NCBI GenBank assembly: GCA_964525635.1
Contig: CAZGJX010000001.1
Span: 40,807 to 104,806 of the forward strand
DNA: 64,000 nt
DNA from: an uncultured archaeon
GTDB lineage: Archaea > Asgardarchaeota > Lokiarchaeia > Sigyniarchaeales > SOKP01
Direction: 5' to 3'
Shown here: in pieces, positions 1 through 44,109 of the stretch
Layout of the letters: each line of letters begins with the position of its first letter
Numbering within the stretch: position 1 is the stretch's first letter
The notes under the pieces: generated by a model
The model's input: only the letters and a program-made list of their open reading frames with translations
Told to the model about the DNA's origin: nothing
Databases searched by the model: none
Position numbers and translations under genes: made by a program

Positions 1-791
1 ATATCCGCCATTGTATAATAAATAGGAACTAATTCATCAGAGATAAATCCTAAGAAGTGGATATCTAGGTTCTTTTCTCTCCAAGTATTATAAATATTCT
101 CCATTTCAAAGTCAGGTTTTCCAGCAATTATTAAATTTAAATTGGAGATTGTTTTCTTAGCAATTTTATATGCTTTGATTATATGTTCTACTCCTTTATA
201 TTTAGCAATCCTTCCCAAGTATAAAATAATAGGTCCTTTAATTTTTAGTTGTTTTTTTAATTTTTCAGCATCTTTTGGATATGGTTTAAATTTATTATCA
301 ATTCCATTATATAAGATATGAATATTCTTACTATTGATACTAGGAATAAACTTTTTAAGACCTTCTCTTGTATGGTTGGATACCGTTGTAATATAAGTTG
401 CTTTTTTAATTATATATTTTATCAGAAATTTCTGAAGTGATTGTGTCGCAAATTTTGTTTCAAATGGTCCTAAATCATGAATAGTGGAAATAAACCTTTT
501 ATAATTAGAAAAAAGAATTGGTATTGAACTTTTAGGTCCATTTCCATGTATAATATCAAAAGAATTTCTATTTAAGTATTTATTTATATTATATATAAAA
601 TGGGGCATCCATAAGAAACGTTTCTTAACCAAGTTCATCTGTATTATATTTGGATCATTCAAAACATAATTCCATTTTCCAGTTAGTAATTTAACGTCAT
701 AACCTTCATTTTTAAGATAATTATATATCCCTTCGAAACCAGTTCTTTCACAATCAGGAGCTATTTTAAGTGATATTAAACAAATTTTCAT
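1..791 (-). CDS. Glycosyltransferase family 4 (GT-B fold), partial; the 3' end runs off the window
   Basis: Not in the ORF track because there is no stop in the window. Reverse complement from ATG 791..789 reads MKICLISLKIAPDCERTGFEGIYNYLKNEGYDV...IIHGNGPKSS...ILYLGRIAKYKGVEHIIKAYK...LIIAGKPD...FLGFISDELVPIYY, a typical GT4 layout. Confidence 0.6.
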   Translation of the reverse strand, partial: MKICLISLKIAPDCERTGFEGIYNYLKNEGYDVKLLTGKWNYVLNDPNIIQMNLVKKRFLWMPHFIYNINKYLNRNSFDIIHGNGPKSSIPILFSNYKRFISTIHDLGPFETKFATQSLQKFLIKYIIKKATYITTVSNHTREGLKKFIPSINSKNIHILYNGIDNKFKPYPKDAEKLKKQLKIKGPIILYLGRIAKYKGVEHIIKAYKIAKKTISNLNLIIAGKPDFEMENIYNTWREKNLDIHFLGFISDELVPIYYTMAD

Positions 792-836: not shown

Positions 837-1817
837 TTATGTTAATTGTTCATATCCATCTTCTGTTATAAGAATAGTTTCTTCTGATTGTGCAACATAG
901 GCTTCTTTTTGTTCAGAAAGAACATAATGGGTTCTTAACTTTCCTTGTTGAATTAATTCCTGAAGTCCAAATACAACGCCCATTTGAAACTCATCAGCTA
1001 GCCATCTTTCTGCAAATGGAAGAGTCTTAAAATTTGAATTAATATATCCTAAAATTCTTTTTGAACTTTTTCTTCTTAAAGGAACTCTACCTGTATAGGG
1101 ATTTAATTCATAAATACTACAAGTATTAGTATTATGGACTGATCCTACCCCTGTGGAAGCAAATATTTCAATTGCAAATATATCATCTATTTCTATTAGA
1201 TCTCCTCCCTGATTACCCAATTCAGGTAGTGATTTTTTACCATGAACGGTCCATCTTTCAATTTGATGTCCACCTAATTCTTTTATGGGATTAAAATTAA
1301 ATCCTTTGACTATACTTTCAATCTTTTTTCCTATTTCTTGAGTATTAATTCCAGGTTTTACCATCATCTTGGCAGCTTCTAATGCAGTATCTGTAGCGAT
1401 TATTATATTATCAAGTGATTTTTCTTCAGTAAATTTAATAGAGAAAGCTGTGTCAACAATAAATCCTTCAATATGAACTCCTAAGTCTATCTTTACAAGA
1501 TCTTTATTTTTAATTACTAATCCATCATCTTTCATAGGTGATGTGTAATGAGCAGCGATATTATTAATTCCTATATTAACTGGAAAAGCACATAAGCCGC
1601 CTAATTCCTTTATCTTCTCTTCAGTTTCTAAAACTATATCTTGTGCTTTTCTACCAATTTTTATCTTTGGTTTTATATACTCCTTAACTTTTTTCGCAAT
1701 TTCTCCCGCTTTCTTTAAAGATTCTATCCTTAATCTCTTTTCTTCTTCACTTTCTCTGGGTTTTTCTTCCTTATTTTTATTAATGGGGGTTTTTTTTATA
1801 GTTTGTTTGTCACTCAT
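837..1817 (-). CDS. map: Methionine aminopeptidase, type 2 (archaeal/eukaryotic type) with a Lys/Glu-rich N-terminal extension
   Basis: 326-aa ORF with the pita-bread signatures NNIAAHYTSP, DLGVHIEGFIVDTAFS, GHQIERW and AIEIFASTG, plus the inserted helical subdomain typical of MetAP2. Confidence 0.85.
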   Translation of the reverse strand: MSDKQTIKKTPINKNKEEKPRESEEEKRLRIESLKKAGEIAKKVKEYIKPKIKIGRKAQDIVLETEEKIKELGGLCAFPVNIGINNIAAHYTSPMKDDGLVIKNKDLVKIDLGVHIEGFIVDTAFSIKFTEEKSLDNIIIATDTALEAAKMMVKPGINTQEIGKKIESIVKGFNFNPIKELGGHQIERWTVHGKKSLPELGNQGGDLIEIDDIFAIEIFASTGVGSVHNTNTCSIYELNPYTGRVPLRRKSSKRILGYINSNFKTLPFAERWLADEFQMGVVFGLQELIQQGKLRTHYVLSEQKEAYVAQSEETILITEDGYEQLT

Positions 1818-1978: not shown

Positions 1979-2350
1979 TTGAGTGAAAACATCAGTGAAC
2001 TTACCGATTTGTTAAGAAACCTTGAAGCAGTTAATTCTGATATTCAGGGTAGTGCTATCGTCTCAGTCCAAGGACTACCAATATGTTCTGCTCTATCTAG
2101 AGATGTGAACGATGGAATTGTTAGTGCGATGAGTGCTGCTATTCTTAGTGTTTCAGAACGAGCAGTTCAGGAACTCGCAAGAGGTATTTTACAGAGAATT
2201 TTAATTGAAGGAATAGATGGTATCATTATTCTTTCAAGAGCAGGAGAAAATGCAATATTATGTACATTAGCAAAACCAGATGCTAGTTTAGGTATGGTTT
2301 TTATACATATAACGAGTGTTTCAAAAAAAATAGCTACATTATTAGATTAA
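1979..2350 (+). CDS. Roadblock/LC7 (MglB-like) domain protein
   Basis: 123 aa with a TTG start. Contains LRNLEAVNSDIQGSAIVSVQGLPICSAL...GIVSAMSAAILSVSERA...ILIEGIDGIIILSRAGENAIL, the usual Roadblock/LC7 pattern and size. Confidence 0.75.
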   Translation: MSENISELTDLLRNLEAVNSDIQGSAIVSVQGLPICSALSRDVNDGIVSAMSAAILSVSERAVQELARGILQRILIEGIDGIIILSRAGENAILCTLAKPDASLGMVFIHITSVSKKIATLLD

Positions 2351-2469: not shown

Positions 2470-3936
2470 TTACTCTCTTAGAGCTTGAATATTGTTAAAA
2501 ATATTATCAAATCTATTTTTTATAGAACCTACTAATCCTTCTTCTTCTGAAATTACTGAATTTATAGCAGCTTTTAAACCATAATGTCCTTCTGATATTG
2601 ATACTCTAATTGGTAAAGTCAAAAATTCATTGATTAGCATAGCGATTTCTTGGAATAATTGTATTATTTTCGGAAAATTTTCTTGTGTTTTATTTATAAT
2701 TGACTGTTCAGGTGATAATAATCCATTTTCTCTTTCTTGATTCAATTCTTCCCAAATATTTTCTTTAAGGGTAGAAAAATTAATTCCTAAATCTTCTAAA
2801 GCAATTTGAGCTCCTTCAAAAAGAAAATTTATATCATCTCTACCAGAATAATTTTTGATATTTTCAACCATTTCATTTGGTGCTAATCCTTCTAAGAATT
2901 TAATTAATAGATTATGATAATCTTTTACTACATCTAAAGGCACAAATAATAATACCATCTCTTTAAGTTGTTTGAAAAAATATCCTGCCACTTTGGCGAT
3001 TGTTTCATTTTTTAGTAATTTCTCAATAAACCTTCCATTTTCATTAAGTAAGTGTATAAGAAGAAATCCAATAATTCTTATCATATCTTCTTCATAATTT
3101 CTAAAATAGTCAAAAAAATGCTCTGGTTCCATATTTAATTTATCTCTAATAATATCAGCAATTCTTTTTTTGATATTTTCTAATGGTTCATCAATTAGTT
3201 CTTCTAATTTATCGAGAGAAAAAGATTCTTGTAATTGATCTAGAAGATCTACTTTATTTTTTTGAATTACTTCCTCTTCTATATCTGATTCAAGGATTAC
3301 TTTAGATAATGTTTTATCTTTTAATTTTAATTGAGTCATTTTTTTCCATTCATTATAATCATAGATTTTACATAACAACTGAAGGCAATTATCACCTTTT
3401 CCCATGCATTTTTGTTCTACAATTTTTATCCTATAATTATTTTTTTTTACTTTTAAGATAAAATTTGCAACACCTTGAAGCATTCCACATAATCCACAAG
3501 CCATTCCTTCTGTTTTATTACCCAATTTCGATATATTAAATGTATCTTCTGGTGATGTACCATAACTTGCACATATTGGACAGTGTTTAATCTTTAAAAG
3601 ATAACTATTATAAATGGAATTTTCTTCTGAAATTTCTTCATAATCTAGCTCTTCTAATTCTTTACCAAATACAACTACCCATAATAATTCAAAATAGTCT
3701 ACAACTTTATCTGGACTTCCAGGCATGAATTTAAATATTGCAGAATGACGTTCACATGACTCCATTGCTGCTTGTTTCCCAACCTCCCTCATTACCAATA
3801 GACTTAATTCTTCATCTTTAGTAATTTCATTGATTTCTTTGAGAATTTCTCTATAAATTAATGAATAGAATAAAGAACTAGTATTCCGACCAAATGCTTT
3901 AGATATTTTTTTCATTAACCATTGAACGATTCCCAT
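2470..3936 (-). CDS. V4R (4-vinyl reductase / TRAPP Bet3-like) domain protein with a long helical C-terminal region
   Basis: 488 aa. V4R-type Cys pattern HCPICASYG...GMACGLCGMLQGVANF...EQKCMGKGDNCLQLL. Its start overlaps the upstream gene's stop by 1 nt (TAATG), suggesting translational coupling. Confidence 0.5.
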   Translation of the reverse strand: MGIVQWLMKKISKAFGRNTSSLFYSLIYREILKEINEITKDEELSLLVMREVGKQAAMESCERHSAIFKFMPGSPDKVVDYFELLWVVVFGKELEELDYEEISEENSIYNSYLLKIKHCPICASYGTSPEDTFNISKLGNKTEGMACGLCGMLQGVANFILKVKKNNYRIKIVEQKCMGKGDNCLQLLCKIYDYNEWKKMTQLKLKDKTLSKVILESDIEEEVIQKNKVDLLDQLQESFSLDKLEELIDEPLENIKKRIADIIRDKLNMEPEHFFDYFRNYEEDMIRIIGFLLIHLLNENGRFIEKLLKNETIAKVAGYFFKQLKEMVLLFVPLDVVKDYHNLLIKFLEGLAPNEMVENIKNYSGRDDINFLFEGAQIALEDLGINFSTLKENIWEELNQERENGLLSPEQSIINKTQENFPKIIQLFQEIAMLINEFLTLPIRVSISEGHYGLKAAINSVISEEEGLVGSIKNRFDNIFNNIQALRE

Positions 3937-4654: not shown

Positions 4655-5040
4655 TTACATTTGTTCTATAATTGCTCTCAACATATCTTCTCCACATGCT
4701 CCCACCATTTTTCCATTTTGTATATGATTTTGACCATTTACTTCTATATTTTTTTCTATTAATTCCCCATCTTTGAAAAACAACAGGGTTGGGATTGCGT
4801 GTATATTAAACATATTACCCAATGGTCTATTTTGATCTAAATCAACTTGTATTATATTTATTAATCCTTCATCTCTTAGCTTATGTAAAATTGGTGTGAT
4901 GAACTTTCATGATGATTTATCTAATTATTAAATCATTTGCATGGTCCGCACCAAACAGTATAAATATCTATGATAAGCTTTCCTTTTTTCATTTCCTCTG
5001 TAACTGGAATGTTCACATCTTTTAATTTATCGATATTCAT
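4655..5040 (-). CDS. trx: Thioredoxin, interrupted by a 32-nt BHB-type insert (117 aa if spliced; pseudogene if not)
   Basis: Not in the ORF track because it is split. Exon 1 (5040..4938) reads MNIDKLKDVNIPVTEEMKKGKLIIDIYTVWCGPCK then TGA. Exon 2 (4905..4655, a different frame) reads (K)FITPILHKLRDEG...IHAIPTLLFFKDGE...-stop. The join gives the canonical WCGPCKxIxPxL. Confidence 0.8.
4906..4937 (-). other. Candidate bulge-helix-bulge (BHB) intron in the thioredoxin mRNA, 32 nt
   Basis: RNA fold drawn by eye. Outer helix GGAC/GUUC, central helix CAUG/CAUG, 3-nt bulges CAA and AAA, inner 8-bp helix AUGAUUUA/UAAAUCAU (4912..4919 / 4929..4936 on +) with a 9-nt loop. Canonical cuts excise 32 nt and restore the frame. 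Confidence 0.65.
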
Positions 5041-11112: not shown

Positions 11113-11586
11113 ATGTCGGAAGATTATGAAATCACACGATTTTTAACTTCTAAAAATAATAATAAAAAACCAAAAATAGATAATTATAATACTTTAAAAG
11201 AATATAACAATGAATTATATACAGGAATGAAAATAGGTGGTAAACATTATTGGAATTATGATAATGGAAAATGGATTGAAATTAAAAAATCCCCAAATAA
11301 ATGGAATTTTACGTTTAATTCCATTAAAACAAGAAATCATCTTGCTCCAATAAATACAGGTGCAAATGTTCACACAAAATACCATTGGTATATTATAGCA
11401 GAGCAATTCGCTGAGAAAATTAATGCTAATTCTTACATGACAACTATGAAAGGAGAGAAATTTAAAATAGGACATAAAAGACTATATTGGAGAACATTTA
11501 ATTATAGATATCCAGATCAAAAACCATATAAAGAGCGATTAATTGAAATTTTAGAAGGAATTTTATATAATTTAAAATCCGGATAA
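11113..11586 (+). CDS. Hypothetical protein
   Basis: 157-aa Trp/Tyr/Lys-rich ORF with no recognisable motif. Confidence 0.4.
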   Translation: MSEDYEITRFLTSKNNNKKPKIDNYNTLKEYNNELYTGMKIGGKHYWNYDNGKWIEIKKSPNKWNFTFNSIKTRNHLAPINTGANVHTKYHWYIIAEQFAEKINANSYMTTMKGEKFKIGHKRLYWRTFNYRYPDQKPYKERLIEILEGILYNLKSG

Positions 11587-12195
11587 AAATGGATAAAATA
11601 TGCAAATGGGTTCTTCAATAGTTCTAAAATGTAAATAAATTTGAATAATTTTAATATAATTTCTCCTATCTCTCTTATATTTTCTATATCTATGTTTTAA
11701 CTACAATTTCTTCATATCTACATACTAAAGTAGAAATTTTTCATTCTCTATTATAGTTTTAAAAAGAATTTTCTATTTCTTATAGATAAAATCATAATAT
11801 AGGTGTATTATAAGAGAGAATAAGAAAATGTAAACACACATCCAATAGAACATGTATAAAAAATAAAAGAGGATATCCCTCAATTGGGAAAAATTACTCC
11901 TATTTCAGGAGTAAAAGAGAAATTGGGAAGAAATTTCAATTCATAATTCATTGGTGCGATAAAAACAAAACAAAATCGATGTTTCTGGAGTATTCTAGAA
12001 GATAATGACTTTGAACTCTATCAGAATGTAGCGAGTCCCGTTCCCGCTAAAAGGTGATTGATGATAATAAGGTAGGGAGAGCTCTGTGAGTTCAATGAAC
12101 ACTTATTTGAGATGCAAGTTAAAGTGATAAAAGATATGAATTTATATCATTTTTATCTATTTGACAGAACGGAAAATTGGTTGATGAATAAATAA

Positions 12196-21455: not shown

Positions 21456-22467
21456 TTAAATTGGAACTGGAATTTCCTCCATAATATTTTTTATAACAGC
21501 TCTGACGTCAAGACCTTCTAATTCTGCTTCTGGTTTTAATAACAGACGATGATTCAATGCAGGGACAGTTAATGCTCTTACATCATCAGGAGTTACATAA
21601 GTTCTTCCTAAGATCGCAGCTCTTGCCTTAGAGCATTTCATTAGTACTAAACTTGCTCTAGGACCACATCCTAATCCAATTTGAGGATGGTTTCTTGTTT
21701 TAAGAATTATATCTCTAATATATTTTAGAATTCTCTCATCGATATATACTTGATTTACCAAATTCTGAGCAGCAAGTATTTCTGGTCCACTAGTGATACG
21801 TTGGACAGTTGGTGAGTCTCCAGACAATTGTCGTCTCATGATTTCAACTTCTTCATCATGTTCTGGATAATCCAGCCATAATTTAAACAAAAATCTATCA
21901 ACCTGAGCTTCAGGTAATGGATAAGTCCCTTCCATCTCTACAGGATTCTCTGTTGCTATTACCATAAATGGTTTTTCGAGTTCCAAGGTTTGACCTTCTA
22001 TTGTAATTTGCCGTTCAGCCATGGCTTCAAGGAGTGCTGCTTGTGTTTTAGGAGCACTTCTATTAATTTCATCCGCTAATACGATGTTTGCAAATAAAGG
22101 TCCTTTTTGAAGCACGAATGTTCCTTCTTCTTGTGAGAATATTTTTGTACCGGTAATATCTGCCGGAAGAAGATCTGGTGTGAATTGTACTCGTTTAAAA
22201 CTTACACCTAAAGTATTTGCAAATGTTTTAGCCATTACTGTTTTACCTAGTCCCGGAACGCCTTTTAACCAAATAATTCGAATTGAATTAAATTTCTAGT
22301 AAGACGTGTCCGTTGACAAGTAAGGATACAAATAATTGCTGAAGAATTTCTCCACATCCCACAATAACTCTACTTACCTCTGAGAGTACCTCCTGAGCAA
22401 TTTCTCTTATGGGGGTAATATCTAACTCGCTATGAGAAGCTGTTTTTATTTTACTTGGTGTTGACAT
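21456..22467 (-). CDS. MoxR-family AAA+ ATPase, interrupted by a 31-nt BHB-like insert just before Walker A (326 aa if spliced)
   Basis: The track ORF 21456..22235 lacks the N-terminus. Exon 1 (22467..22296) reads MSTPSK...[25 protein letters not shown]. After the insert comes [15 protein letters not shown]..., then [28 protein letters not shown]. Confidence 0.8.
22265..22295 (-). other. Candidate relaxed BHB intron in the MoxR mRNA, 31 nt
   Basis: Fold drawn by eye. 6-bp outer helix ACGUCU/AGGCGU, central helix UACU/GGUU (A-U, C-G, U-G plus one U-U), 3-nt bulges AGA and AAA, inner hairpin UAAUUC-AAUUC-GAAUUA. Canonical cuts excise 31 nt and give CUA-GAA-GGC (L-E-G). Confidence 0.5.
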
Positions 22468-32648: not shown

Positions 32649-33179
32649 ATGAGTGAAAAAGAGGATTTTAAGTTAAAAATTATTGTAATTGGTCAACCAG
32701 CCGTTGGGAAGACTAGCTTAGTTAGAAAATTTGTTTCCGGGGAATTTAATAAAGATTATCGAAGTACAATTGGTACAAATATCTATATAAAAGATGTTGT
32801 TTTAGAGGATGGTCGTAAAGTTATTCTTAATATATGGGATATTGCAGGACAGGAAAGATGGATTAGAATGAGAAATAGATATTATAATGGAACGCAGGGT
32901 GCTGTTATTGTAGGAGATTTATCAAGAAAAAGAACTTTTGAAAATATTGAAAAATTTTGGTACCCTGATTTAAAAGTACATAATCTTTTAATTCCAATAA
33001 TATTAATTGGAAATAAACATGATCTCGAAGCTGAAATCTCCAATCAAGAAGTTGAAGATTTAAAGAGAAGAATAAAGGCGGAATTATTTATAACCACTTC
33101 AGCAAAAACTGGAGAAAATGTAAATGAAATCTTCCAAAAATTATCAAAAAAAATATTAGATGCTATCAATAACAAATAA
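32649..33179 (+). CDS. Ras-superfamily small GTPase, Rab/Ras-like
   Basis: 176 aa with G1 GQPAVGKTS, G2 YRSTIG, G3 WDIAGQERW, G4 GNKHDL and G5 TSAKTG. There is no C-terminal Cys prenylation motif (the protein ends DAINNK). Confidence 0.85.
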   Translation: MSEKEDFKLKIIVIGQPAVGKTSLVRKFVSGEFNKDYRSTIGTNIYIKDVVLEDGRKVILNIWDIAGQERWIRMRNRYYNGTQGAVIVGDLSRKRTFENIEKFWYPDLKVHNLLIPIILIGNKHDLEAEISNQEVEDLKRRIKAELFITTSAKTGENVNEIFQKLSKKILDAINNK

Positions 33180-36801: not shown

Positions 36802-39800
36802 TTATAAATCTTTACTTGTAAATTTTATATATCCAGTTCTTGGTTCATATAATATCCCTTGAGTAATTAAATCATCAATAGCTTTTTTTATATAATCGCC
36901 TTCCAATCCTTCTTCAAGATAAAGGATTTGAGCCACTGATTTTCTTTCAAGCATCTTCCAGTCATTTTCCTCAAATACTTCCTTAAGCCTGGTTAAAAGT
37001 TTATCAAATTTATTTAATTTACTTCTTGATTCTCCAACAAAAATCCTATCCACATCAATTTTTCCAGTAGTTTCATCATATCCTGTATCTCTTAGATATC
37101 GCTTAAATAATTTAATAATTTCTATAACATCTTCTTTAAGAACTTTTTCTCTTAAAGCCATTTTAGCATGTGCTTCACTTAATCGGACGAGTGCATCTAA
37201 ATTTCTCGCTAAAATTGAAATGATTGCATCTTCACTACTATATTCTCCTCGCAGTTCTAAATAGAAATCTTTTATATATTTTTTTGCTTCTTTTGTTAAA
37301 GTTGGTTTACAGGTTCTTTTTGCATGCTTAATATATTTTTTTAACAATTCACCTGAAATTGGAGCAAAATTTTCTTCTTTTTCACTAAAATTTTCATTAT
37401 CAGAATCTATCATTGCGCTTTGGAGGATAAATTCTGCCATTTGAGCATCATCAGCTTTATTTGGCCGATCAACAACAACAAATATTAGATCAAATCTAGA
37501 TAATAATGAAGGGGGTAATCTTATATTTTGTGTTGGTGTTTTATATATATCATATCTTCCAGAATGTGGATTTGCGGCGGCTATAACGGCAGTCTCGGCT
37601 TTTAATGTTGCTACTATTCCTGCCTTTGCTATACTTATAGTCTGTTGTTCCATCGCCTCATGCAGGGCAGATCTATCAGCTGTACTCATTTTATCAAATT
37701 CATCGATGGCCGCAACACCTCCATTTGCTAAGACTATTGCTCCTGCTTCCAAATTCATCTGACCTGTATCTGTATCTTTGATTACCGCAGCCGTCAATCC
37801 CACAGCGCTTGCGCCCTTTCCACTAGTGTATAAACCTCTAGGAGATATATCTACTGATGATTTTAATATTTCGCTATTATGAACAATTAGATTTCCATTA
37901 GCTACAATAAAGTGATGATCCTTAGTTCCAATATCATAAACATAAGTTTTTCTTTTTATTATATCAATTTTATCTATTTCATCCCATAATATATCCGATT
38001 CTGATAAAAGTTTTAACCATTTTAGATCATTGTTATATTCCTTATCTCTTTCATTATAAAGAAGTTCTAGCTTTTTTATTACTTTTCTTAAATATTGTCG
38101 TCCTACTCTTTGTCTTTGTGTTTTAACACGAAGTTCTGCACTAAATTTCCGTAACCATGTTCCTCTACGATTAAAATTTCCTAATTCTCTAATTATATTC
38201 TGCAATATATCTCCAAAGTTTGGAATTATATCTTTTTTTTGGTATCTCGAAGTTTGAGATGCTAATTCTATAGATTTTTCTAGTTTAATTTTTTTTTCTT
38301 TTATTAGAAATCCTATTATCTTATAATATTTAATAGTCTCTTCTCCTGTTAGAATTATCGTATGATATAAATTCCCTTTATAGATTCCAGATTTTATTTC
38401 TTTAATTCCTATTGTTGCAAAAATTCCAAAAGAACATAACATATCTGATAGATTATAAGCTAAATCTTTGCTAGCTGTACTAGCTTCTATATATAACATA
38501 TTCTTTTCAATATAACTATCTCCAGTAAAATAAGCGGATAATAATCCCCGACGAAATGTTTCTGGTGTAAATAAGATTTTTGATGAAATTTTTTTGAATT
38601 TAGCATGATTTCCAAAAAATTTTTTAATCCATTTCATAAAAACTTCATTATGAATTTGAATTGTATTATCATAATTATAGATAGATACTTTATTGAAAAT
38701 GGACTTGATATCTTTTTGAAGTATTTTAACAACATCTGGATTTGTATTTGTAATTCTAACAGAATTTTGACTAATATCTCCTTCAGCAATATAAAAACCG
38801 ATTATTCTGCCAAATTCTTCATTAAGGGTTATGTTGTGTGGGATCCAATTATTATTTCTTTTTTTTCTTATCCAATCACCACTAGGGATAACATTAGGTT
38901 CTTTTTTATATAGTAATAATGTTGATTTTCCTATATTTGAGACTATTGCTGCATTTTTAAGAGATACTATCCCTTTGTTATATAATGATAGCTGTTCTTT
39001 TATCTTAAGACTACTTTGACAATCTTTTTTATTAATAAATGGAGACATATCAGCTTTATGATAATTAACTTCACATCTTAAATTCCTTGCTACAGGTAAG
39101 TAATACCTTTTTTTATTTTTTGAGAGTCTATTTGAATTTTTAATTTCACATAATTGATTTGCATCAATTAATTCTAATTTACCATTTATTAAAGTTGTAA
39201 AGGAGTGGTTTGGAGTAGCTATAATTTTACGCCCATTTTTTGTATTTATTTTAATAAGAATATTCGTCATATGACGACTAATTTCATTTATTTGAGATAT
39301 TTGAGTTTTAAAATTATTAAAATTAATAGAATAAGTATATTGTTTAGGTGAATTTTCTAATTTTAGAACTTCTGAATCTCCTTTTAAAATTATTTTAGAA
39401 GGATTTTGATTCATTAATTCATCAATGAAATCACTTATCTTTGTTAGATCCCAAATTTTTCCATTATTAATTTCTGTTCCTATATAAATTTTTTCTGATC
39501 CATGAATACTCTTTCCAGTCCCGGGATCACCTACAAATAAAACATGGATATCCCCTCTTTTATAGTTGCCTCCTATTTTTTTTTTTCTTGTTCCGGCAAA
39601 TAAAGTTAATGCACATGCCATTTTTAGATCATTTCTTCCATAAATCGTTGGTGCGATTGAACGAGTAATTTTTCTTTGAATGAATGGTTCTTTTGCGAGT
39701 TTTTCAATCTCTTTTTTCTCTTCTTTAGTTATATCGATTTGTTCTTCACTTTTATCTTCCGGATCTATATAATTCACATCTATAAATGTCTTGAATAAAG

Positions 39801-40578
39801 TAGAATTATTACTATTCATGGATGTAGCAATGACAGATTTGAATATACCAACTATTTTTATTCTATCCCCTGGTTTAACATAATCAACTAAATCATGTGT
39901 TAATATAGCCTGAATTGCTCTTGGAATCCTTCCAGGAGGTAAATCCTCCGGCACTTCTTGAACTGTAATGCTTTGCCAGTCTATGAAATCTGATTTTTTA
40001 GAAATTAGACGAAAATCTGATTTTGCTTTTGCTTTACATCTTTTATTATGACAGAAGTTAGGCCATCTTATACTTGAAGTAAGTTGTAATACTTCAAAAG
40101 CGGCTCCACAAATATTACATTCAAAAATAGCTTTTATTAATTTTGGTCTGACTACTGAACTTCTAATTGTAATACCTTTTACACACACTAATTTATCAAT
40201 ATTTTTTGATCTTAAACCTCTTATACTAATTGTTAATGGACTTTTTTCGTCTTTTGTAGTTATTCTCACAGAATACTCATCATAATTTATAGTTCCTCCA
40301 GAATGGAACTTTAAAATATTTTTAAATGCCTTTATCGCATCTTCTATAAGGATTTCAGGATCATTTTTTAGCATTTCAGCTATTTGAGAATCGAAAGAAA
40401 GAAGATCTTCATATAAGATTATTAGAGTTTTTCTACCTTTAGCATCAATATTTTTTATTTGTTCTTGATATTTATATTCTCCAGGCGTCTCCTCAAAGAG
40501 CCGATAAAAATCTTCAAATCTTTGAGTTTGATTAATGGGAGAGATTGGGCTTGATAGAGGTGTTACCATACAAAACAC
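36802..40578 (-). CDS. mcm: MCM replicative helicase containing a 545-aa intein in the P-loop
   Basis: 1258 aa. Zn finger CNICG...CHNKRC, Walker A GDPGTGK|S split by the intein, then EILKSS...SGKGASAVGLTAAV, Walker B AAIDEFDKM, and arginine finger SRFDLIF. The extein is 713 aa. Confidence 0.95.
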   Translation of the reverse strand: MFCMVTPLSSPISPINQTQRFEDFYRLFEETPGEYKYQEQIKNIDAKGRKTLIILYEDLLSFDSQIAEMLKNDPEILIEDAIKAFKNILKFHSGGTINYDEYSVRITTKDEKSPLTISIRGLRSKNIDKLVCVKGITIRSSVVRPKLIKAIFECNICGAAFEVLQLTSSIRWPNFCHNKRCKAKAKSDFRLISKKSDFIDWQSITVQEVPEDLPPGRIPRAIQAILTHDLVDYVKPGDRIKIVGIFKSVIATSMNSNNSTLFKTFIDVNYIDPEDKSEEQIDITKEEKKEIEKLAKEPFIQRKITRSIAPTIYGRNDLKMACALTLFAGTRKKKIGGNYKRGDIHVLFVGDPGTGKSIHGSEKIYIGTEINNGKIWDLTKISDFIDELMNQNPSKIILKGDSEVLKLENSPKQYTYSINFNNFKTQISQINEISRHMTNILIKINTKNGRKIIATPNHSFTTLINGKLELIDANQLCEIKNSNRLSKNKKRYYLPVARNLRCEVNYHKADMSPFINKKDCQSSLKIKEQLSLYNKGIVSLKNAAIVSNIGKSTLLLYKKEPNVIPSGDWIRKKRNNNWIPHNITLNEEFGRIIGFYIAEGDISQNSVRITNTNPDVVKILQKDIKSIFNKVSIYNYDNTIQIHNEVFMKWIKKFFGNHAKFKKISSKILFTPETFRRGLLSAYFTGDSYIEKNMLYIEASTASKDLAYNLSDMLCSFGIFATIGIKEIKSGIYKGNLYHTIILTGEETIKYYKIIGFLIKEKKIKLEKSIELASQTSRYQKKDIIPNFGDILQNIIRELGNFNRRGTWLRKFSAELRVKTQRQRVGRQYLRKVIKKLELLYNERDKEYNNDLKWLKLLSESDILWDEIDKIDIIKRKTYVYDIGTKDHHFIVANGNLIVHNSEILKSSVDISPRGLYTSGKGASAVGLTAAVIKDTDTGQMNLEAGAIVLANGGVAAIDEFDKMSTADRSALHEAMEQQTISIAKAGIVATLKAETAVIAAANPHSGRYDIYKTPTQNIRLPPSLLSRFDLIFVVVDRPNKADDAQMAEFILQSAMIDSDNENFSEKEENFAPISGELLKKYIKHAKRTCKPTLTKEAKKYIKDFYLELRGEYSSEDAIISILARNLDALVRLSEAHAKMALREKVLKEDVIEIIKLFKRYLRDTGYDETTGKIDVDRIFVGESRSKLNKFDKLLTRLKEVFEENDWKMLERKSVAQILYLEEGLEGDYIKKAIDDLITQGILYEPRTGYIKFTSKDL
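37876..39510 (-). mobile_element. Intein with LAGLIDADG homing-endonuclease domain (MCM P-loop insertion site)
   Basis: Starts with Ser (GDPGTGK/SIHGSEKIY). Block B is ATPNHSF. LAGLIDADG motifs are IIGFYIAEGD and LLSAYFTGDS. Ends YVYDIG..HHFIVANGNLIVHN/S with a +1 Ser. 1635 nt = 545 aa. Confidence 0.9.
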
Positions 40579-40740: not shown

Positions 40741-43700
40741 TTAACTTTCATTTAATTGATGAAATACTTTACAAATAATTTGATCTTGGGACATTTCACA
40801 TCTCATTTTTAAAAGAGAAATAACTCTATTTTTAGTATCATCATCTTCAACATTAATAGTACGTCCTAATATCAAAGCAATCGATCTTTGTAATTCAATT
40901 GAGAATTCATCACTAAGATGTTTTAATAGACTTGGTAATAAATTCTTAAGACCTTTTCTTTTAATTAATTCAACCATAACATTAATTATTCGATTTCTTA
41001 CATCTTTAGAGGGATCATCTAATAATGATATTATTTCATCAAATACTTTTTCAATATTATCCTGAGCAAAAATCTTTAATAATCCCACAGTTGCTTCTCT
41101 TACATTTTCATCTTTATGGTTAATATTGTCTAATATTTTTTGAAAGGGTATTTTAGAAACGTTGATATCTTTGATATCAGAAAGTAAATTTAATACTGAG
41201 CGCCTTACCCAGCTCTCATTATCATCAAGAAGAGGAATGAGTTTTTCAATAATAAAATCTTTATCTTCTATTTTATGAATAATATTACCAAGACTGGTAA
41301 TAGCCGCTTGTCTTACGATCCAATCTTTGTCTATTAGAGTTTTATTTAGTAGATATTCAATTGATTTTTTATAATCATCAATATTTTCTCCAATTCTACC
41401 TAAAATCTTTGTTGCAGATTCTCTAATAAATGAGTCTTTATCATTTAATAAATTATCAATAGAATCTATTTGTATGAATTTTGGCGTTTTTTCCACTATT
41501 TCAGATAAAGATTTTACTAAGGTTATTTTTACAGTTATTTCCTGTTGATTAAATATCTCAAATAACTCGGGCATTATTGATTTTATTAATTTTGGTTCGA
41601 TTTTAGCGATATTAGTAAATAAATTTATAATTTCATTTTTTAATTTCACATCCCATGGTTTTTTTAAAATTATAATTAGAGGTTCTACGTCAATTAATTC
41701 AGGAAATTCAGTTGCAAGCCCTTCTAATGTGGATATTGCATTTAAACATATATCTTCTGTTTCTACCTTTATTATCTTATTCAATTTAGGGATTATATCT
41801 TTTGGATACTTTTTTGCTATTCTTATTAGAGTTCTTGAAATAATACCTTTTGTTAAGAATTTTGAAATTTCTGGGATTTTGATTAAATTATTAAATATTA
41901 AATCTGGATTTGATTGATATTTTTCAACAAAAATATCTGAGATTTTTTCTTTTATTTTGATATTATCATAATTAATAAAATTTGATAATATTTCAATAAT
42001 TTTTTCAGGATTTTTATCCCATATTTTTCCTAATAAAATTAAAATACTGAGCAATCTATTAGGATCTCTTTCATCTATTCTATTTATTATTTGGTTTAGT
42101 TCAATTGCTTTTGGTTTTTCCTCTATATATTTACCAAGAAGCAGTATTGAAGCATTTCGTACTTTTTCATCAGGATCAATTAAACCATCTAATAATGAAG
42201 TAAGAGAGATTGGGAGCTTATAAAAATCTTTAAATTCTGCTAATAATTCGTATAAGGATGCTCTAACTGAACTAGACGGGTCAGTCATTAATGGTAATAC
42301 TTTTGAGATTAATTCAGATTTTAAATTATCTTTAGTTATTAATTTAATGTGTTTAATTGCAGTAGCTCTAATATTTTTATTATTATGTCCTATTTTTTTT
42401 ATTAAAATCTCAGTAGGAATAGTGGTTGATGATTTAGATAATAGTTTTATTAGTTCAATTTGAATATTACTGTCTGGATTGTTTAATAACTCTTGAATGT
42501 TTAATTCTTGAATCAGGTCTTTATTATATTCTATTAATCTTGAAATGATTTTTAACGATATTTCTCTCATTCTCCATTCAGGATCATTAATAAGATCAAA
42601 AAAGATACTAAGTTGTAATTTTTGAAGATGTTTTATATCTACTTCTAATAATGATCTTGCTATTGGAATACTCTTATCATAATTAGGCGAATATAAAGCT
42701 TCTTTTATCCAAATTGCTATACTATTAGGTGAATCTTTAAGAAGTTGAGTAAAGATTCTATAACAAATCCTTCGTGTTTTAGCATCTGGATCACATATCC
42801 CATCAAATAAAGGATTTTTATATTTCACCTTATTTATATCATATTCTTTTTTCAGAGGTATCCTTTCATACATATTAATTAAAGTTTGTTCAGCATATTT
42901 TTGAATCTTAAGATCACTACTTTTAATAAAATTAAAGAGAGGGATTGGATCAAATTTTTGGCCACATTCTGTAATCTTAGAATGATATAAATTAATAGAG
43001 AAACTATTTTTTTTATTAATAAAATAATATAAAATAAAAATAACAATAAATATTTCTTCTATAACTGCAGGTATTGCAAATAATGGAAAATTAATAGGAA
43101 TAGGGATTGGTTTTGTTAATACCCAAGCATTTAAAGTTTCTGTTAATTTTTTAATATTTACAATTAGGAAATTTACAAATATATTTATTCCAACTGCAGC
43201 CATAAGATAAGCAGCAAAATAGATATCTATACCTCTATATTTTATCTTTCTTCCCCAAAATCGAGTAAAATATCCAATTACTCCAAAAAGTAAAGTAATA
43301 AATACCATTCCAGAATAAGAATATGTTGAGATTGCTAAAGATCCTGTAAATAGAAAATTTAAAGTTTGTATCATAGAAACCCATTGCCAAACAAAAACAA
43401 ATAACATAAAACCAATAAGTATTCTTGGTAATGGATCATTAGCAAATTCATTTAATGATCTCTTCGAATCTTCAAATCCAAGAAAGAGAGATCTATTTAA
43501 ATCAGGTAAATGAAAAAAGGAATTTGTAATTCCAGCAATATATCCCTTTGCGCCAAAATAGGTTAAGATCATCATTGGATAGATTAAAAACCAAGTTATC
43601 CAAACAATTATCAAGGGTACTCCTAAAAATGATATTATGATGGGTGGAATTATAAAGACACCTATATATAGAGAAATAGCGATAAATACAGAAAGAATTT

Positions 43701-44109
43701 TTGAATTAAATCGGGCAATAATATTTTTTCCCAAGATTTTATGAAATATCGTAAGCCCTTCATGTGATTTTGAACTCATAGCAATGAATATAAAATCAAT
43801 TAATGGATATATAGAAATATATCCCAAACATAATGCTATTGGTATGGATAACATTAGAGGATTAATATCCTCTTGAGGTTTAATTGTACTCAATTCCCAA
43901 AGTTCAGGAGATTTTATAGCAAATATAAATGCCATCACCATTACAATCATAAGTGCCATACTAAAAACAATACCATAAAAAACACATAATAATCCATCTT
44001 TTAGAGAGAATTCTCCCTTTTTTACTAAATTGACTTGTTTATATATGATAAAGAATCCTAAAATGGCAAAAATAAAGAATATAATAAATAAAATTATTTC
44101 AGCAATCAA
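40741..44109 (-). CDS. Polytopic membrane protein fused to a ~750-aa HEAT/PBS-lyase-like repeat array
   Basis: 1122 aa. About 10 N-terminal TM helices, then repeated D-P/K-D-x-x-V-R units (DPDAKTRR, DPEWRMRE, DPSSSVRA, DPDEKVRN, DKDSFIRE, DKDWIVRQ, DNESWVRR, HKDENVRE, DPSKDVRN). Confidence 0.65.
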   Translation of the reverse strand: MIAEIILFIIFFIFAILGFFIIYKQVNLVKKGEFSLKDGLLCVFYGIVFSMALMIVMVMAFIFAIKSPELWELSTIKPQEDINPLMLSIPIALCLGYISIYPLIDFIFIAMSSKSHEGLTIFHKILGKNIIARFNSKILSVFIAISLYIGVFIIPPIIISFLGVPLIIVWITWFLIYPMMILTYFGAKGYIAGITNSFFHLPDLNRSLFLGFEDSKRSLNEFANDPLPRILIGFMLFVFVWQWVSMIQTLNFLFTGSLAISTYSYSGMVFITLLFGVIGYFTRFWGRKIKYRGIDIYFAAYLMAAVGINIFVNFLIVNIKKLTETLNAWVLTKPIPIPINFPLFAIPAVIEEIFIVIFILYYFINKKNSFSINLYHSKITECGQKFDPIPLFNFIKSSDLKIQKYAEQTLINMYERIPLKKEYDINKVKYKNPLFDGICDPDAKTRRICYRIFTQLLKDSPNSIAIWIKEALYSPNYDKSIPIARSLLEVDIKHLQKLQLSIFFDLINDPEWRMREISLKIISRLIEYNKDLIQELNIQELLNNPDSNIQIELIKLLSKSSTTIPTEILIKKIGHNNKNIRATAIKHIKLITKDNLKSELISKVLPLMTDPSSSVRASLYELLAEFKDFYKLPISLTSLLDGLIDPDEKVRNASILLLGKYIEEKPKAIELNQIINRIDERDPNRLLSILILLGKIWDKNPEKIIEILSNFINYDNIKIKEKISDIFVEKYQSNPDLIFNNLIKIPEISKFLTKGIISRTLIRIAKKYPKDIIPKLNKIIKVETEDICLNAISTLEGLATEFPELIDVEPLIIILKKPWDVKLKNEIINLFTNIAKIEPKLIKSIMPELFEIFNQQEITVKITLVKSLSEIVEKTPKFIQIDSIDNLLNDKDSFIRESATKILGRIGENIDDYKKSIEYLLNKTLIDKDWIVRQAAITSLGNIIHKIEDKDFIIEKLIPLLDDNESWVRRSVLNLLSDIKDINVSKIPFQKILDNINHKDENVREATVGLLKIFAQDNIEKVFDEIISLLDDPSKDVRNRIINVMVELIKRKGLKNLLPSLLKHLSDEFSIELQRSIALILGRTINVEDDDTKNRVISLLKMRCEMSQDQIICKVFHQLNES

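What the first reader, a model, noticed from the sequence alone, without database searches (positions are those of the whole stretch)
4900..4945. 32-nt bulge-helix-bulge intron splitting a thioredoxin gene immediately after the CGPC active site
On the minus strand, the frame from ATG 5040 reads MNIDKLKDVNIPVTEEMKKGKLIIDIYTVWCGPCK and then hits TGA (4935..4933). A different frame from 4903 continues FITPILHKLRDEGLINIIQVDLDQNRPLGNMFNIHAIPTLLFFKDGELIEK...EQM-stop (4657..4655). Deleting exactly 32 nt joins WCGPCK to FITPIL, which is colinear with the canonical thioredoxin WCGPCK-x-I-x-P-I-L and gives a normal 117-aa Trx. The RNA around the insert draws as a textbook hBHBh' motif. The outer helix is GGAC/GUUC and the central 4-bp helix is CAUG/CAUG. 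Two 3-nt bulges (CAA and AAA) flank the central helix, and an inner 8-bp helix AUGAUUUA/UAAAUCAU closes a 9-nt loop. Cutting after the 2nd nt of each bulge, the rule for the archaeal tRNA splicing endonuclease, removes 4937..4906 (32 nt). Ligation then gives UGC-AAG-UUC (C-K-F) in frame. To my knowledge, BHB introns in protein-coding mRNAs are documented essentially only for cbf5 in Crenarchaeota, so a Trx mRNA intron would be new.
Basis: partly seen in the sequence, partly recalled or inferred. Interest (0 to 1): 0.9.

Follow-up and report, generated by a model that had tools for sequence, protein, structure and literature searches.

The report
Tiny tRNA-type intron in thioredoxin gene
A 32-base insert that breaks a thioredoxin gene of a Lokiarchaeon (an Asgard archaeon) folds into exactly the RNA shape cut by the archaeal tRNA-splicing enzyme. 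A sister lineage keeps it with compensating base changes, and a second gene in the same window carries a similar insert, so it is very probably a real mRNA intron, a kind so far confirmed for only one gene in other archaea.

Summary
On the minus strand, ATG 5040 reads to WCGPCK and then hits TGA. Deleting 4937..4906 (32 nt) gives a gapless 117-aa thioredoxin. The lowest-energy fold is a strict hBHBh' motif. The insert is not an assembly artefact, because three independent assemblies carry it unchanged. It is not a pseudogene lesion either. A sister lineage has a 32-nt insert at the same site with 9 substitutions that keep the structure, including one A:U to G:C compensatory pair, and both exons are under purifying selection (dN/dS about 0.2). 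Stops in all three frames rule out frameshifting.

I also found that this is not a one-off:
- A MoxR ATPase gene in the same window (intron 22295..22265) is split inside its Walker A motif by a 31-nt BHB-like insert. Three other lineages have it at 30, 30 and 32 nt with compensatory changes, and exon 2 has dN/dS 0.04.
- Relatives carry a second MoxR intron site.
- A Hodarchaeote has a different thioredoxin intron.

Best explanation: EndA cleavage and RtcB ligation of pre-mRNA. There are no RNA data. In the searched literature only cbf5 has a confirmed intron inside a coding sequence.

The parts
4655..5040 (-). Thioredoxin gene (pre-mRNA coding span, start codon to stop codon), interrupted.
   Evidence: The spliced product is 117 aa, matches PF00085 at E 3e-18, and is colinear with 117-aa Lokiarchaeal orthologues.
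4938..5040 (-). Exon 1 (103 nt): M1..C34 plus the first base of the K35 codon. It contains the WCGPC active site.
   Evidence: Exon 1 dN/dS is 0.20 against L164.
4906..4937 (-). 32-nt intron AAUGAUUUAAUAAUUAGAUAAAUCAUCAUGAA. Two registers shifted by 1 nt give the same product. It has stops in all three frames.
   Evidence: It is identical in L081, L082 and L083. L164, L165 and L166 carry a 32-nt homologue with 9 substitutions.
4655..4905 (-). Exon 2 (251 nt including the stop): the last two bases of the K35 codon, then F36..M117.
   Evidence: Exon 2 dN/dS is 0.22 against L164.
4944..4947 (-). Outer helix h, 5' strand GGAC. It pairs with GUUC at 4901..4904.
   Evidence: MFE fold. This helix is not conserved in L164 (GGAC/GAUA). 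There a distal UGGUGU/GCACCA helix closes the motif instead.
4901..4904 (-). Outer helix h, 3' strand GUUC (in exon 2).
4940..4943 (-). Central 4-bp helix H, 5' strand CAUG (in exon 1).
   Evidence: Invariant in L164 and L166.
4908..4911 (-). Central 4-bp helix H, 3' strand CAUG (3' end of the intron).
4937..4939 (-). 5' bulge CAA. Predicted cut between 4938 and 4937.
   Evidence: The rule 'cut between 2nd and 3rd bulge residue' is stated in PMC2738675. The bulge is conserved as CAA in L164.
4905..4907 (-). 3' bulge AAA. Predicted cut between 4906 and 4905.
   Evidence: It is AGA in L164, and the same rule again gives an in-frame CK|IIAPFLHK.
4912..4936 (-). Inner hairpin h': 8-bp helix AUGAUUUA/UAAAUCAU closing a 9-nt loop (4920..4928).
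   Evidence: Against L164, pair 1 changes A:U to G:C (compensatory), pair 7 changes U:A to U:G, and the loop is free to vary.
21456..22467 (-). Second interrupted gene in the window: a MoxR-type AAA+ ATPase (326 aa after splicing).
   Evidence: Pfam AAA_3 is matched over 1-131/131 at E 1e-64. The alignment to PDB 2r44 is gapless across LLE|GVPGLGKT.
22265..22295 (-). 31-nt BHB-like intron inside the Walker A coding region of moxR. It is a relaxed motif.
- outer helix ACGUCU/AGGCGU
- central helix UACU/GGUU with one U.U mismatch
- bulges AGA and AAA
- inner hairpin UAAUUC/GAAUUA
   Evidence: - The fold has z -4.45, and the register that restores the frame is listed.
- Homologous inserts of 30, 30 and 32 nt occur in L167, L169 and L172-175, with two compensatory pairs and a co-inserted G:C pair.
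- Exon 2 dN/dS is 0.036-0.038 at dS 1.2.
60980..61081 (+). tRNA-Ala(CGC) with a 30-nt intron at a non-canonical position (31/32 to 33/34). It is the only other candidate splicing substrate in the window.
   Evidence: aragorn with introns allowed. Default ARAGORN and the Rfam gathering threshold missed it. A permissive Rfam search found the acceptor and T arms.

Best explanation
The 32 nt at 4937..4906 are an archaeal bulge-helix-bulge (BHB) intron inside the coding sequence of a thioredoxin gene of a Lokiarchaeon (Promethearchaeota, Asgard).

Proposed mechanism:
1. The gene is transcribed with the insert.
2. The pre-mRNA folds into the hBHBh' motif.
3. The tRNA-splicing endonuclease EndA cuts after the second residue of each 3-nt bulge. 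In Asgard archaea EndA is reported to be the broad-specificity (alpha-beta)2 type.
4. An RtcB-type ligase joins ...UGCA to AGUUC..., which restores codon AAG (Lys35) and the reading frame.
5. The 32-nt intron is released, probably as a circle.
6. Only the spliced mRNA encodes the 117-aa thioredoxin. Unspliced RNA would yield a 35-residue peptide ending right after CGPCK.

The intron belongs to a wider class of 25-32-nt BHB-type introns that sit in conserved-motif codons of protein genes in Asgard archaea. Examples are moxR in this same window, a second moxR site in relatives, and a different trx site in a Hodarchaeote.

Shown here: the exact motif, exact frame restoration, independence from assembly, conservation with compensatory change, purifying selection on both exons, and recurrence in other genes and sites.

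Inferred: that removal happens at the RNA level, that EndA and RtcB are the enzymes, and the fate of the intron.
For: 1. Motif and product.
- The MFE and centroid fold equal the strict hBHBh'.
- The cleavage rule removes exactly 32 nt and yields a 117-aa Trx.
- The product is colinear with orthologues across the invariant K35/F36.

2. Real DNA.
- The gene is identical in contigs from JGI 3300031624, JGI 3300031257 and Logan SRR9706179.

3. Sister lineage (L164, L165, L166).
- The site, the 32-nt length and the synteny are the same.
- 9 of 32 intron positions differ, yet the central helix, the 5' bulge and all 8 inner pairs are kept (A:U to G:C, U:A to U:G).
- The spliced product is in frame.

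4. Selection.
- dN/dS is 0.20 for exon 1 and 0.22 for exon 2, at dS 0.56 and 0.85.

5. Translational rescue is excluded.
- The insert has stops in all three frames.

6. Recurrence.
- The moxR intron at 22295..22265 restores LLE|GVPGLGKT exactly.
- Its homologues are 30, 30, 31 and 32 nt long. The frame relation between the exons therefore changes, yet exon 2 has dN/dS 0.04.
- MoxR site B is present in L174, L177 and L178, with 4 compensatory pairs. One of them pairs a synonymous exon change with an intron change.
- The Hodarchaeote L014 has a 25-nt intron at another trx site, with fold z -3.26.

7. Enzymology and precedent.
- Asgard archaea have (alpha-beta)2 EndA with the L1 loop (PMC5829648).
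- cbf5 introns are cut between the 2nd and 3rd bulge residues by the hetero-oligomeric EndA (PMC2738675).
Against: - There is no transcript evidence of any kind. No spliced-form protein (117-aa Trx or 326-aa MoxR of this lineage) exists in the 5.8-billion-protein collection.
- EndA and RtcB genes are not in the window and could not be tied to this genome.
- The fold energy of the trx motif is not exceptional (z -1.08), and BHB-like shapes are common by chance in this AT-rich DNA. A strong one at 11276..11317 proved to be ordinary coding sequence.
- The proximal outer helix is not conserved in the sister lineage.
- Covariation for the trx intron itself rests on one double change and one wobble change.
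- The moxR-A motif is relaxed, with a U.U mismatch in the central helix, and it is not the MFE or RNAalifold register.
- CAUG is a palindrome, so CATGCAA...CATGAAA could also be read as an imperfect target-site duplication.
- How an archaeon with coupled transcription and translation would avoid translating unspliced RNA is unexplained.
Confidence: 0.8

Rival explanations
1. Translational bypassing (ribosome hopping, as in phage T4 gene 60). The ribosome takes off at Lys codon AAA (4938-4936), which is followed directly by a stop codon and a hairpin. It lands on AAG (4906-4904), so the insert stays in the mRNA.
For: In the window sequence the grammar fits. There is a Lys take-off codon, then TGA, then a stable hairpin, and a Lys codon exactly at the landing position in the exon-2 frame. 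Like splicing, hopping would tolerate stops in all frames.
Against: - In the sister lineage L164 the take-off codon is AAG, but the codon at the landing position in the pre-mRNA is GAG. The Lys codon exists only after BHB-rule joining (and my reading of it).
- The moxR inserts have no matching take-off and landing codons: GAA or GAG against AAA before GGC.
- L014 has none either.
- Hopping gives no reason for two 3-nt bulges spaced by 4 bp, nor for compensatory changes across both helices.
Confidence: 0.04
2. Inactivating insertion, that is a pseudogene. A small palindromic element, or a hairpin-forming duplication with an imperfect target-site duplication CATGCAA/CATGAAA, disrupted trx, and the BHB look is coincidental.
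For: - CAUG/CAUG is both a direct and an inverted repeat.
- BHB-like shapes are frequent by chance here.
- About 30 other Asgard orthologues lack the insert.
- Gene callers treat the pieces as 35-aa and 52-aa fragments.
Against: - Both exons stay open and are under purifying selection after dS 0.56-0.85 of divergence with the insert in place.
- The insert keeps its length and structure through 9 substitutions.
- No other copy of the element is in the window.
- L014 and the moxR inserts have non-palindromic central helices and no flanking direct repeats.
- moxR exon 2 has dN/dS 0.04.
- A copy that really looks decayed or erroneous (L171) shows point lesions, not BHB inserts.
Confidence: 0.05
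3. The insert is removed from the RNA, but not by EndA. Some other nuclease and ligase, or a self-cleaving activity, recognises the hairpin.
For: No enzyme was tested. Several of the related inserts are only relaxed BHBs. I could not draw a convincing BHB for the window's own tRNA-Ala intron.
Against: - The trx motif is the canonical EndA substrate to the base.
- In every case the 'after 2nd bulge residue' rule, and no other simple rule, gives the in-frame colinear product.
- Relaxed motifs are the known substrates of the (alpha-beta)2 EndA that Asgard archaea carry (PMC5829648; PMC2738675).
- At 25-32 nt the inserts are too small for any known ribozyme intron. This rests on my own knowledge.
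Confidence: 0.08
4. Assembly or sequencing artefact, or programmed ribosomal frameshifting or stop-codon read-through.
For: The data come from metagenome-assembled sequence. The two reading frames differ by 32 nt, which is not a multiple of 3.
Against: - The sequence is identical in three independent assemblies, and a diverged copy occurs in three more.
- Stops in all three frames inside the insert leave no frameshift path.
- The moxR homologues of 30 nt are in frame but carry stop codons (one in L169/L170, three in L167/L168), in a segment that would add 10 residues inside the P-loop.
Confidence: 0.01

Closest known systems
BHB intron in cbf5 (pseudouridine synthase) pre-mRNA of Crenarchaeota (Watanabe 2002; Yoshinari 2006; Yokobori 2009, PMC2738675)
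   Same: - A short ORF-less intron inside a protein-coding sequence.
- A BHB or relaxed BHB lies at the exon-intron borders, with the predicted cut between the 2nd and 3rd bulge residue.
- The host has the hetero-oligomeric, broad-specificity EndA.
- Presence and absence among related lineages is patchy.
- The split gene is mistaken for a frameshift or for fragments in annotation.
   Different: - The genes differ: thioredoxin, plus moxR in the same window.
- The phylum differs: Lokiarchaeia/Asgard instead of Desulfurococcales/Sulfolobales.
- The trx motif here is strict hBHBh', whereas most cbf5 motifs are unconventional.
- There are several genes and several sites per gene family, and one lineage has two introns in one gene.
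- cbf5 splicing is confirmed by cDNA and in vitro cleavage. Here nothing is confirmed at the RNA level.
Archaeal tRNA and rRNA BHB introns and processing stems
   Same: The same structural motif, and presumably the same EndA and RtcB enzymes. The sizes lie within the tRNA-intron range (11-175 nt according to PMC2738675). The window itself holds an intron-containing tRNA-Ala.
   Different: The substrate is an mRNA, so removal has to preserve a reading frame and has to compete with translation. There is no tRNA body to help recognition.
BHB intron in the 5' UTR of HVO_1309 mRNA, Haloferax volcanii (Schwarz et al. 2020, PMC7714728)
   Same: EndA-dependent processing of a messenger RNA outside tRNA and rRNA.
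   Different: That intron lies in the untranslated leader, not in the coding sequence, so it does not interrupt the protein. It is also in a euryarchaeon with a different EndA type.
Unconventional splicing of HAC1/XBP1 mRNA (IRE1 endonuclease plus tRNA ligase/RtcB) in eukaryotes
   Same: Non-spliceosomal splicing by a protein endonuclease and a tRNA ligase. The XBP1 intron is tiny (26 nt) and its removal switches the reading frame. Cleavage sites are presented by RNA stem-loops. This comparison rests on my own knowledge.
   Different: The endonuclease is IRE1, not EndA/TSEN. The sites lie in 7-nt loops, not 3-nt bulges. The event is a regulated stress switch, and no regulation is known or shown here.
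Translational bypass of the 50-nt gap in phage T4 gene 60
   Same: A coding gap of tens of nucleotides that begins with a stop codon right after the last sense codon and contains a hairpin. The gene still makes one polypeptide.
   Different: Bypass needs matched take-off and landing codons. That fails in the sister trx lineage and in the moxR and L014 inserts. It also does not predict the bulge-helix-bulge geometry or its covariation.

Membership tests
Archaeal BHB (EndA-dependent) intron in a pre-mRNA | Two 3-nt bulges on opposite strands separated by a 4-bp helix at the exon-intron borders. | tested here: met
   The MFE and centroid fold of 4953..4895 shows CAUG/CAUG flanked by bulges CAA and AAA. 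L164 has the same layout with CAA and AGA.
Archaeal BHB (EndA-dependent) intron in a pre-mRNA | Flanking helices h and h' (the strict hBHBh' form). | tested here: met
   Outer helix GGAC/GUUC of 4 bp and inner helix of 8 bp. In the sister lineage the proximal outer helix is lost and a distal 6-bp helix replaces it, which is a relaxed form.
Archaeal BHB (EndA-dependent) intron in a pre-mRNA | Cutting after the 2nd residue of each bulge and joining the exons gives an intact, colinear gene product. | tested here: met
   The product is a 117-aa Trx matching PF00085 at E 3e-18, gapless against orthologues. The same rule works in L164 (CK|IIAPFLHK).
Archaeal BHB (EndA-dependent) intron in a pre-mRNA | The structure, not the sequence, is conserved among relatives (covariation). 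| tested here: met
   - trx: 9 of 32 positions changed, with 1 compensatory pair, 1 wobble change, no inner or central pair broken, and the loop free to vary.
- This is thin for trx alone but strong for the class. moxR-A has 2 compensatory pairs plus a co-inserted pair, and moxR-B has 4 compensatory pairs.
Archaeal BHB (EndA-dependent) intron in a pre-mRNA | The interrupted gene remains functional, with purifying selection on the exons. | tested here: met
   dN/dS is 0.20 (exon 1) and 0.22 (exon 2) for trx, and 0.036-0.038 for moxR exon 2.
Archaeal BHB (EndA-dependent) intron in a pre-mRNA | The host encodes a splicing endonuclease able to cut BHBs outside a tRNA context, and an RtcB ligase. 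| not testable with these tools
   Neither gene is in the 64-kb window (Pfam scans). The literature reports (alpha-beta)2 EndA with the L1 loop in Asgard archaea (PMC5829648). The intron-containing tRNA-Ala in the window implies that a splicing system exists.
Archaeal BHB (EndA-dependent) intron in a pre-mRNA | Spliced mRNA is observed (cDNA or RNA-seq junction) and the intron is cut by EndA in vitro. | not testable with these tools
   No RNA data are available. No protein equal to the spliced product is in the public collection searched.
Translational bypass (gene 60 type) | Matched take-off and landing codons flanking the gap. | tested here: not met
   - The window has AAA and AAG, which is compatible.
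- L164 has AAG against GAG at the landing position.
- The moxR inserts and L014 have no match.
Pseudogene or inactivating insertion | Relaxed selection and further lesions downstream of the disruption. | tested here: not met
   The exons are intact and constrained in two trx lineages and four moxR lineages.
Repeated mobile element (MITE-like) | Multiple similar copies in the genome, with target-site duplications. | tested here: inconclusive
   There is no second copy within 64 kb at up to 3 mismatches. CATGCAA/CATGAAA could be an imperfect duplication, but the other introns show none. The whole genome was not available.

The most novel reading that the evidence does not exclude
[quoted passage not shown] If that rate held genome-wide, it would mean dozens to more than a hundred per genome.
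- They are inserted preferentially in the most conserved motif codons: CGPC|K, the Walker A motif and QFTPD|LLP.
- They are gained and lost between close lineages, and one gene can hold two.

The closest prokaryotic relatives of eukaryotes would then routinely splice mRNAs. They would need some way to keep ribosomes off unspliced transcripts.
Probability: 0.4. Interest if true: 0.95.

Novelty: new variant of a known kind. Interest (0 to 1): 0.88.

Why it matters
Until now, protein-coding genes interrupted by tRNA-type (BHB) introns were a curiosity of one gene, cbf5, in some Crenarchaeota. Here the same mechanism appears to serve a thioredoxin and a MoxR ATPase in Lokiarchaeia, the archaeal group nearest to eukaryotes. 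Several independent sites are involved, and one lineage has two introns in one gene.

If RNA data confirm this, three things follow:
- mRNA splicing by a protein endonuclease and RtcB would be a regular part of gene expression in Asgard archaea.
- An old question would become testable: how a cell without a nucleus copes with introns in messages that ribosomes can reach during transcription. That problem is often invoked for the origin of the nucleus.
- It would offer a prokaryotic counterpart of HAC1/XBP1-type unconventional splicing.

There is also a practical consequence. Such genes are currently annotated as fragments or pseudogenes, here as 35-aa and 52-aa pieces and as 59-aa and 259-aa pieces. 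Asgard gene inventories and metabolic reconstructions therefore miss them. BHB-aware gene calling is needed.

Tried and rejected
1. Genome-style BHB scans with an 'ORF-joining' test gave 223 hits in the window. Nearly all lay in antisense or out-of-frame stretches or at operon gene junctions, so the scan is not specific.

2. Adding a codon-usage filter and relaxed motifs over 253 kb of AT-rich Asgard loci recovered only the L164-type trx intron. It missed the window's own two introns, so it is not sensitive. I therefore give no genome-wide count.

3. BHB motif enrichment: there is none relative to dinucleotide shuffles. The argument rests on position, not abundance.

4. A strong in-frame BHB-like motif at 11276..11317 (42 nt, outer 8 bp, inner 7 bp) was tested as a possible hidden intron and rejected. 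It is not the MFE, and homologues span the region with no length difference.

5. An A/U-rich 'BHB' at about 61281 is low-complexity pairing with z -0.67, so I rejected it.

6. Default ARAGORN and the Rfam gathering threshold found no RNA gene. The tRNA-Ala appeared only with permissive settings. I could not draw a canonical BHB for its intron.

7. The 609-nt ORF-free gap at 11587..12195 has no Rfam family and no repeats.

8. The MAFFT alignment of the moxR introns shifts one helix by a column in L172. I therefore used a hand alignment, checked against the raw sequences, for the pair counts. RNAalifold still recovered the two compensatory pairs.

9. An attempt to fetch DNA beyond the window returned only a 2-kb contig.

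10. Eight literature searches found no report of BHB introns in Asgard protein-coding genes. The library lacks most subscription-journal papers.
Full report
**1. The observation**

- ATG at 5040 opens a frame that encodes MNIDKLKDVNIPVTEEMKKGKLIIDIYTVWCGPCK and stops at TGA 4935..4933.
- A different frame continues from 4903 as FITPILHKLRDEG... to the stop at 4657..4655.
- Deleting 4937..4906 (32 nt) joins UGC-A to AG-UUC and gives a 117-residue protein.
- That protein matches Pfam Thioredoxin (PF00085, E 3e-18).
- It aligns with no gap to twenty 114-136-residue thioredoxins annotated as Lokiarchaeota/Promethearchaeota/Thorarchaeota, at 58-74% identity. K35 is invariant and F36 nearly invariant at the junction.

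The organism is therefore an Asgard archaeon of the Lokiarchaeal group. The window content agrees with this: Roadblock/LC7, a Ras-family GTPase, MCM, topoisomerase VI and F420 biosynthesis genes.

**2. The structure**

RNAfold's minimum-free-energy and centroid structure of 4953..4895 is the strict hBHBh' motif that was drawn:
- outer helix GGAC/GUUC
- central helix CAUG/CAUG
- 3-nt bulges CAA and AAA
- inner helix of 8 bp closing a 9-nt loop

The cleavage rule for archaeal splicing endonuclease is a cut between the second and third bulge residues, as stated for cbf5 in PMC2738675. Applied here, it removes exactly the 32 nt that the protein alignment requires.

**3. Chance**

The fold energy is ordinary for this AT-rich sequence (z -1.08). 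BHB-shaped motifs are as common in the window as in dinucleotide shuffles: 43 against 47 for inner >=6 and outer >=4, and 11 against 8.7 for inner >=8. A motif of this kind is therefore not evidence on its own. I confirmed this with a negative control. A strong in-frame motif at 11276..11317 is plain coding sequence.

The evidence is positional. From the counts, and allowing the 3 equivalent registers, the probability that a motif this strong has its two cut sites at exactly the required site and spacing is about 2e-6. For any strict BHB it is about 9e-4.

**4. Artefact, frameshift and pseudogene are excluded**

- The 35-residue exon-1 product is recorded on contigs from three separate assemblies (two JGI metagenomes and one Logan run). 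All carry the whole gene and insert with no difference.
- The insert has stop codons in all three frames, so no frameshift or read-through route exists.
- A search with the first 40 residues found exactly one other protein, a 35-residue fragment 83% identical. Its contigs (L164, L165, L166, from ENA and Logan) have the same neighbours and a trx gene interrupted at the same nucleotide by an insert of the same length.
- Nine of the 32 intron positions differ. Even so, the central helix, the 5' bulge and all eight inner pairs survive. The first inner pair changes on both sides (A:U to G:C) and the seventh changes to a wobble pair, while the loop changes freely.
- The same cleavage rule gives CK|IIAPFLHK in frame. 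The spliced proteins are 74% identical.
- Nei-Gojobori dN/dS is 0.20 for exon 1 and 0.22 for exon 2, at dS 0.56 and 0.85. A gene disabled by the insert would not keep both halves constrained over that much divergence.
- The proximal outer helix is not kept in this lineage. A distal UGGUGU/GCACCA helix closes the motif instead, which makes it a relaxed BHB.

**5. It is not a one-off**

*A second trx site.* Among about 30 Asgard orthologous loci fetched from genomes and metagenomes, all others are uninterrupted. The exception is a Hodarchaeote MAG (L014). It has a 25-nt insert at a different place (NRPLGE-R|FGITAIPT), with central helix GGCG/CGCU, AAA bulges, a 5-bp inner helix, fold z -3.26 and exact frame restoration.

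*A second gene in the window.* Inspecting ORF-free gaps of the window showed a second split gene. A 59-residue ORF ends ...GHVLLEI*, and it is followed by a 259-residue ORF that starts inside a P-loop.
- Removing 22295..22265 (31 nt) gives a 326-residue MoxR ATPase.
- The Pfam AAA_3 domain is complete (1-131/131, E 1e-64).
- The protein aligns without a gap to PDB 2r44 across LLE|GVPGLGKT.
- The region folds into a long helix with two bulges (z -4.45).
- The register that restores the frame is a relaxed BHB: outer ACGUCU/AGGCGU, central UACU/GGUU with one U.U, bulges AGA and AAA, and inner hairpin UAAUUC/GAAUUA.

*The moxR intron in relatives (site A).* A search with the 59-residue fragment returned six more fragments of 57-61 residues. 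Four of them (P0124, P0125, P0127, P0128) are genes split at this site; the 61-aa P0126 (L171) and the 57-aa P0129 (L176) are not, as described below. Their contigs show three further lineages with an insert at the same site, of 30, 30 and 32 nt.
- The frame relation between the exons therefore differs among lineages. Even so, exon 2 is intact, with dN/dS 0.036-0.038 at dS 1.2.
- The inner helix has two double compensatory changes. One lineage has a co-inserted G:C pair, and two further changes keep pairing through wobble.
- RNAalifold independently reports the two compensatory pairs.

*A second moxR site (site B).* Three further hits (P0130-P0132) read through site A. Two of them (P0131, P0132) break later, after QFTPE; P0130 diverges earlier, after FRRV, and no insert could be defined there. 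For P0131 and P0132 the DNA shows a 30-nt in-frame insert with two stops inside the Asp codon of [10 protein letters not shown] (L177 and L178; fold z -3.8).
- The L172/L174 lineage has an insert at this second site too, so it has two introns in one gene.
- Between L174 and L177 the inner 9-bp helix differs by three compensatory pairs.
- The central helix differs by one compensatory pair, in which a synonymous exon change (ACA to ACU) is matched by an intron change.

*A contrast.* One MoxR copy, L171, carries a premature TGA and a 1-nt deletion but no insert. That is what decay or sequencing error looks like.

**6. Mechanism**

The simplest account of all cases is the one known for cbf5. The pre-mRNA folds, EndA cuts in the two bulges, and RtcB joins the exons.
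- Asgard archaea are reported to possess the (alpha-beta)2 EndA with the L1 insertion, which confers broad specificity (PMC5829648). This is the enzyme type linked to mRNA and relaxed-motif cleavage in Crenarchaeota (PMC2738675).
- The window also holds a tRNA-Ala(CGC) with a 30-nt intron at a non-canonical position. The organism therefore needs such an enzyme.
- Removal at the RNA level, the identity of the enzymes, and circularisation of the intron are inferences. No RNA data were available, and the enzyme genes are not in the window.

**7. Rivals**

- Ribosome hopping fits the window sequence on its face: AAA, a stop, a hairpin, then AAG. It fails in the sister lineage, where the pre-mRNA codon at the landing position is GAG. 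It also fails in moxR and L014, and it does not predict the bulge geometry.
- A palindromic insertion with an imperfect target duplication (CATGCAA/CATGAAA) is conceivable for trx alone. It is contradicted by selection on the exons, by the absence of other copies, and by the non-palindromic central helices of the other introns.
- A different RNA-processing enzyme cannot be excluded, but nothing requires one.

**8. Known or new**

Eight full-text searches found no report of BHB introns in Asgard protein-coding genes.
- A 2020 paper states that cbf5 is the only such mRNA example besides its own 5'-UTR case (PMC7714728).
- The 2009 cbf5 paper says other cases were predicted but never confirmed.
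- The library searched omits most subscription-journal papers, so an existing report cannot be ruled out.

I rate the finding as a new variant of a known kind. The mechanism is presumably the same, but the genes and the phylum are new, and the introns recur at several sites and in several genes.

**9. An unproven pattern**

All four sites lie in the most conserved motifs of their proteins, as inteins and homing introns do. The bulges are nearly always N-R-A (CAA, AAA, AGA, once AGU). How such tiny introns spread, and how translation of unspliced RNA is avoided, remains open.

Noticed in passing
window 21456..22467 (-), intron 22295..22265: A MoxR-type AAA+ ATPase gene is split inside its Walker A motif by a 31-nt BHB-like insert. 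Removing the insert restores LLE|GVPGLGKT exactly. Three related lineages have the insert at 30, 30 and 32 nt with compensatory changes.
   Followed up: yes
L174/L172 (about 2788..2817 in L174), L177 (about 709..738), L178: There is a second intron site in MoxR, 30 nt inside the Asp codon of [10 protein letters not shown]. The L172/L174 lineage therefore has two introns in one gene. The window's moxR lacks this one.
   Followed up: yes
L014 about 2969..2993 (Hodarchaeota MAG JBHLKV010000192.1): The orthologous thioredoxin, with the same downstream genes, carries a 25-nt BHB-like insert at a different site (NRPLGE-R|FGITAIPT). It is known from only one assembly.
   Followed up: partly
window 60980..61081 (+): A tRNA-Ala(CGC) with the G3:U70 pair has a 30-nt intron at a non-canonical position (31/32 to 33/34). 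Default ARAGORN and the Rfam gathering threshold missed it. I could not draw a canonical BHB for this intron.
   Followed up: partly
window 36802..40578 (-): The MCM helicase gene (1258 aa) contains an intein with a LAGLIDADG endonuclease domain inside the P-loop domain.
   Followed up: no
window 46454..49612 (-): Topoisomerase VI subunit B is 1052 aa long. About 430 residues between the ATPase domain (173-259) and the transducer domain (694-838) have no Pfam match, and no intein signature was detected.
   Followed up: no
window 53004..54380 (-): A TnpB/Cas12f-like IS605 OrfB gene (HTH, OrfB and TNB domains). No omega-RNA was looked for.
   Followed up: no
window 11276..11317 (+), inside ORF 11113..11586: A strong in-frame BHB-shaped motif (outer 8 bp, central AAUG/CGUU, inner 7 bp, 42 nt). 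Homologues show no length difference there, so it is a chance motif in ordinary coding sequence and a useful negative control.
   Followed up: yes
L171 about 1530..1650 (ENA ERZ23499165 scaffold_12343): An intron-less MoxR copy has GGA changed to TGA in the P-loop and a 1-nt deletion 60 nt later. It is either a decaying pseudogene or a poor assembly, and it contrasts with the clean BHB inserts.
   Followed up: partly
window 11587..12195: A 609-nt stretch between convergent genes has no ORF of 40 aa or more, no Rfam family (only a weak CRISPR-DR-like hit at E 0.49) and no repeats.
   Followed up: partly
window 1979..2350 (+), 32649..33179 (+), 40741..44109 (-): Eukaryote-like signature proteins typical of Asgard archaea: Roadblock/LC7, a Ras-family small GTPase, and a 1122-aa HEAT-repeat protein with PDS5/adaptin-like matches.
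   Followed up: no
all intron sites (window 4938/4905, 22296/22264; L014; L174/L177): All four intron sites lie in the most conserved motif of the host protein: CGPC-K, NRPLGE-R-FGI, Walker A and QFTPD. The bulges are almost always N-R-A. This resembles the site preference of inteins and homing introns, and no mechanism is known.
   Followed up: no
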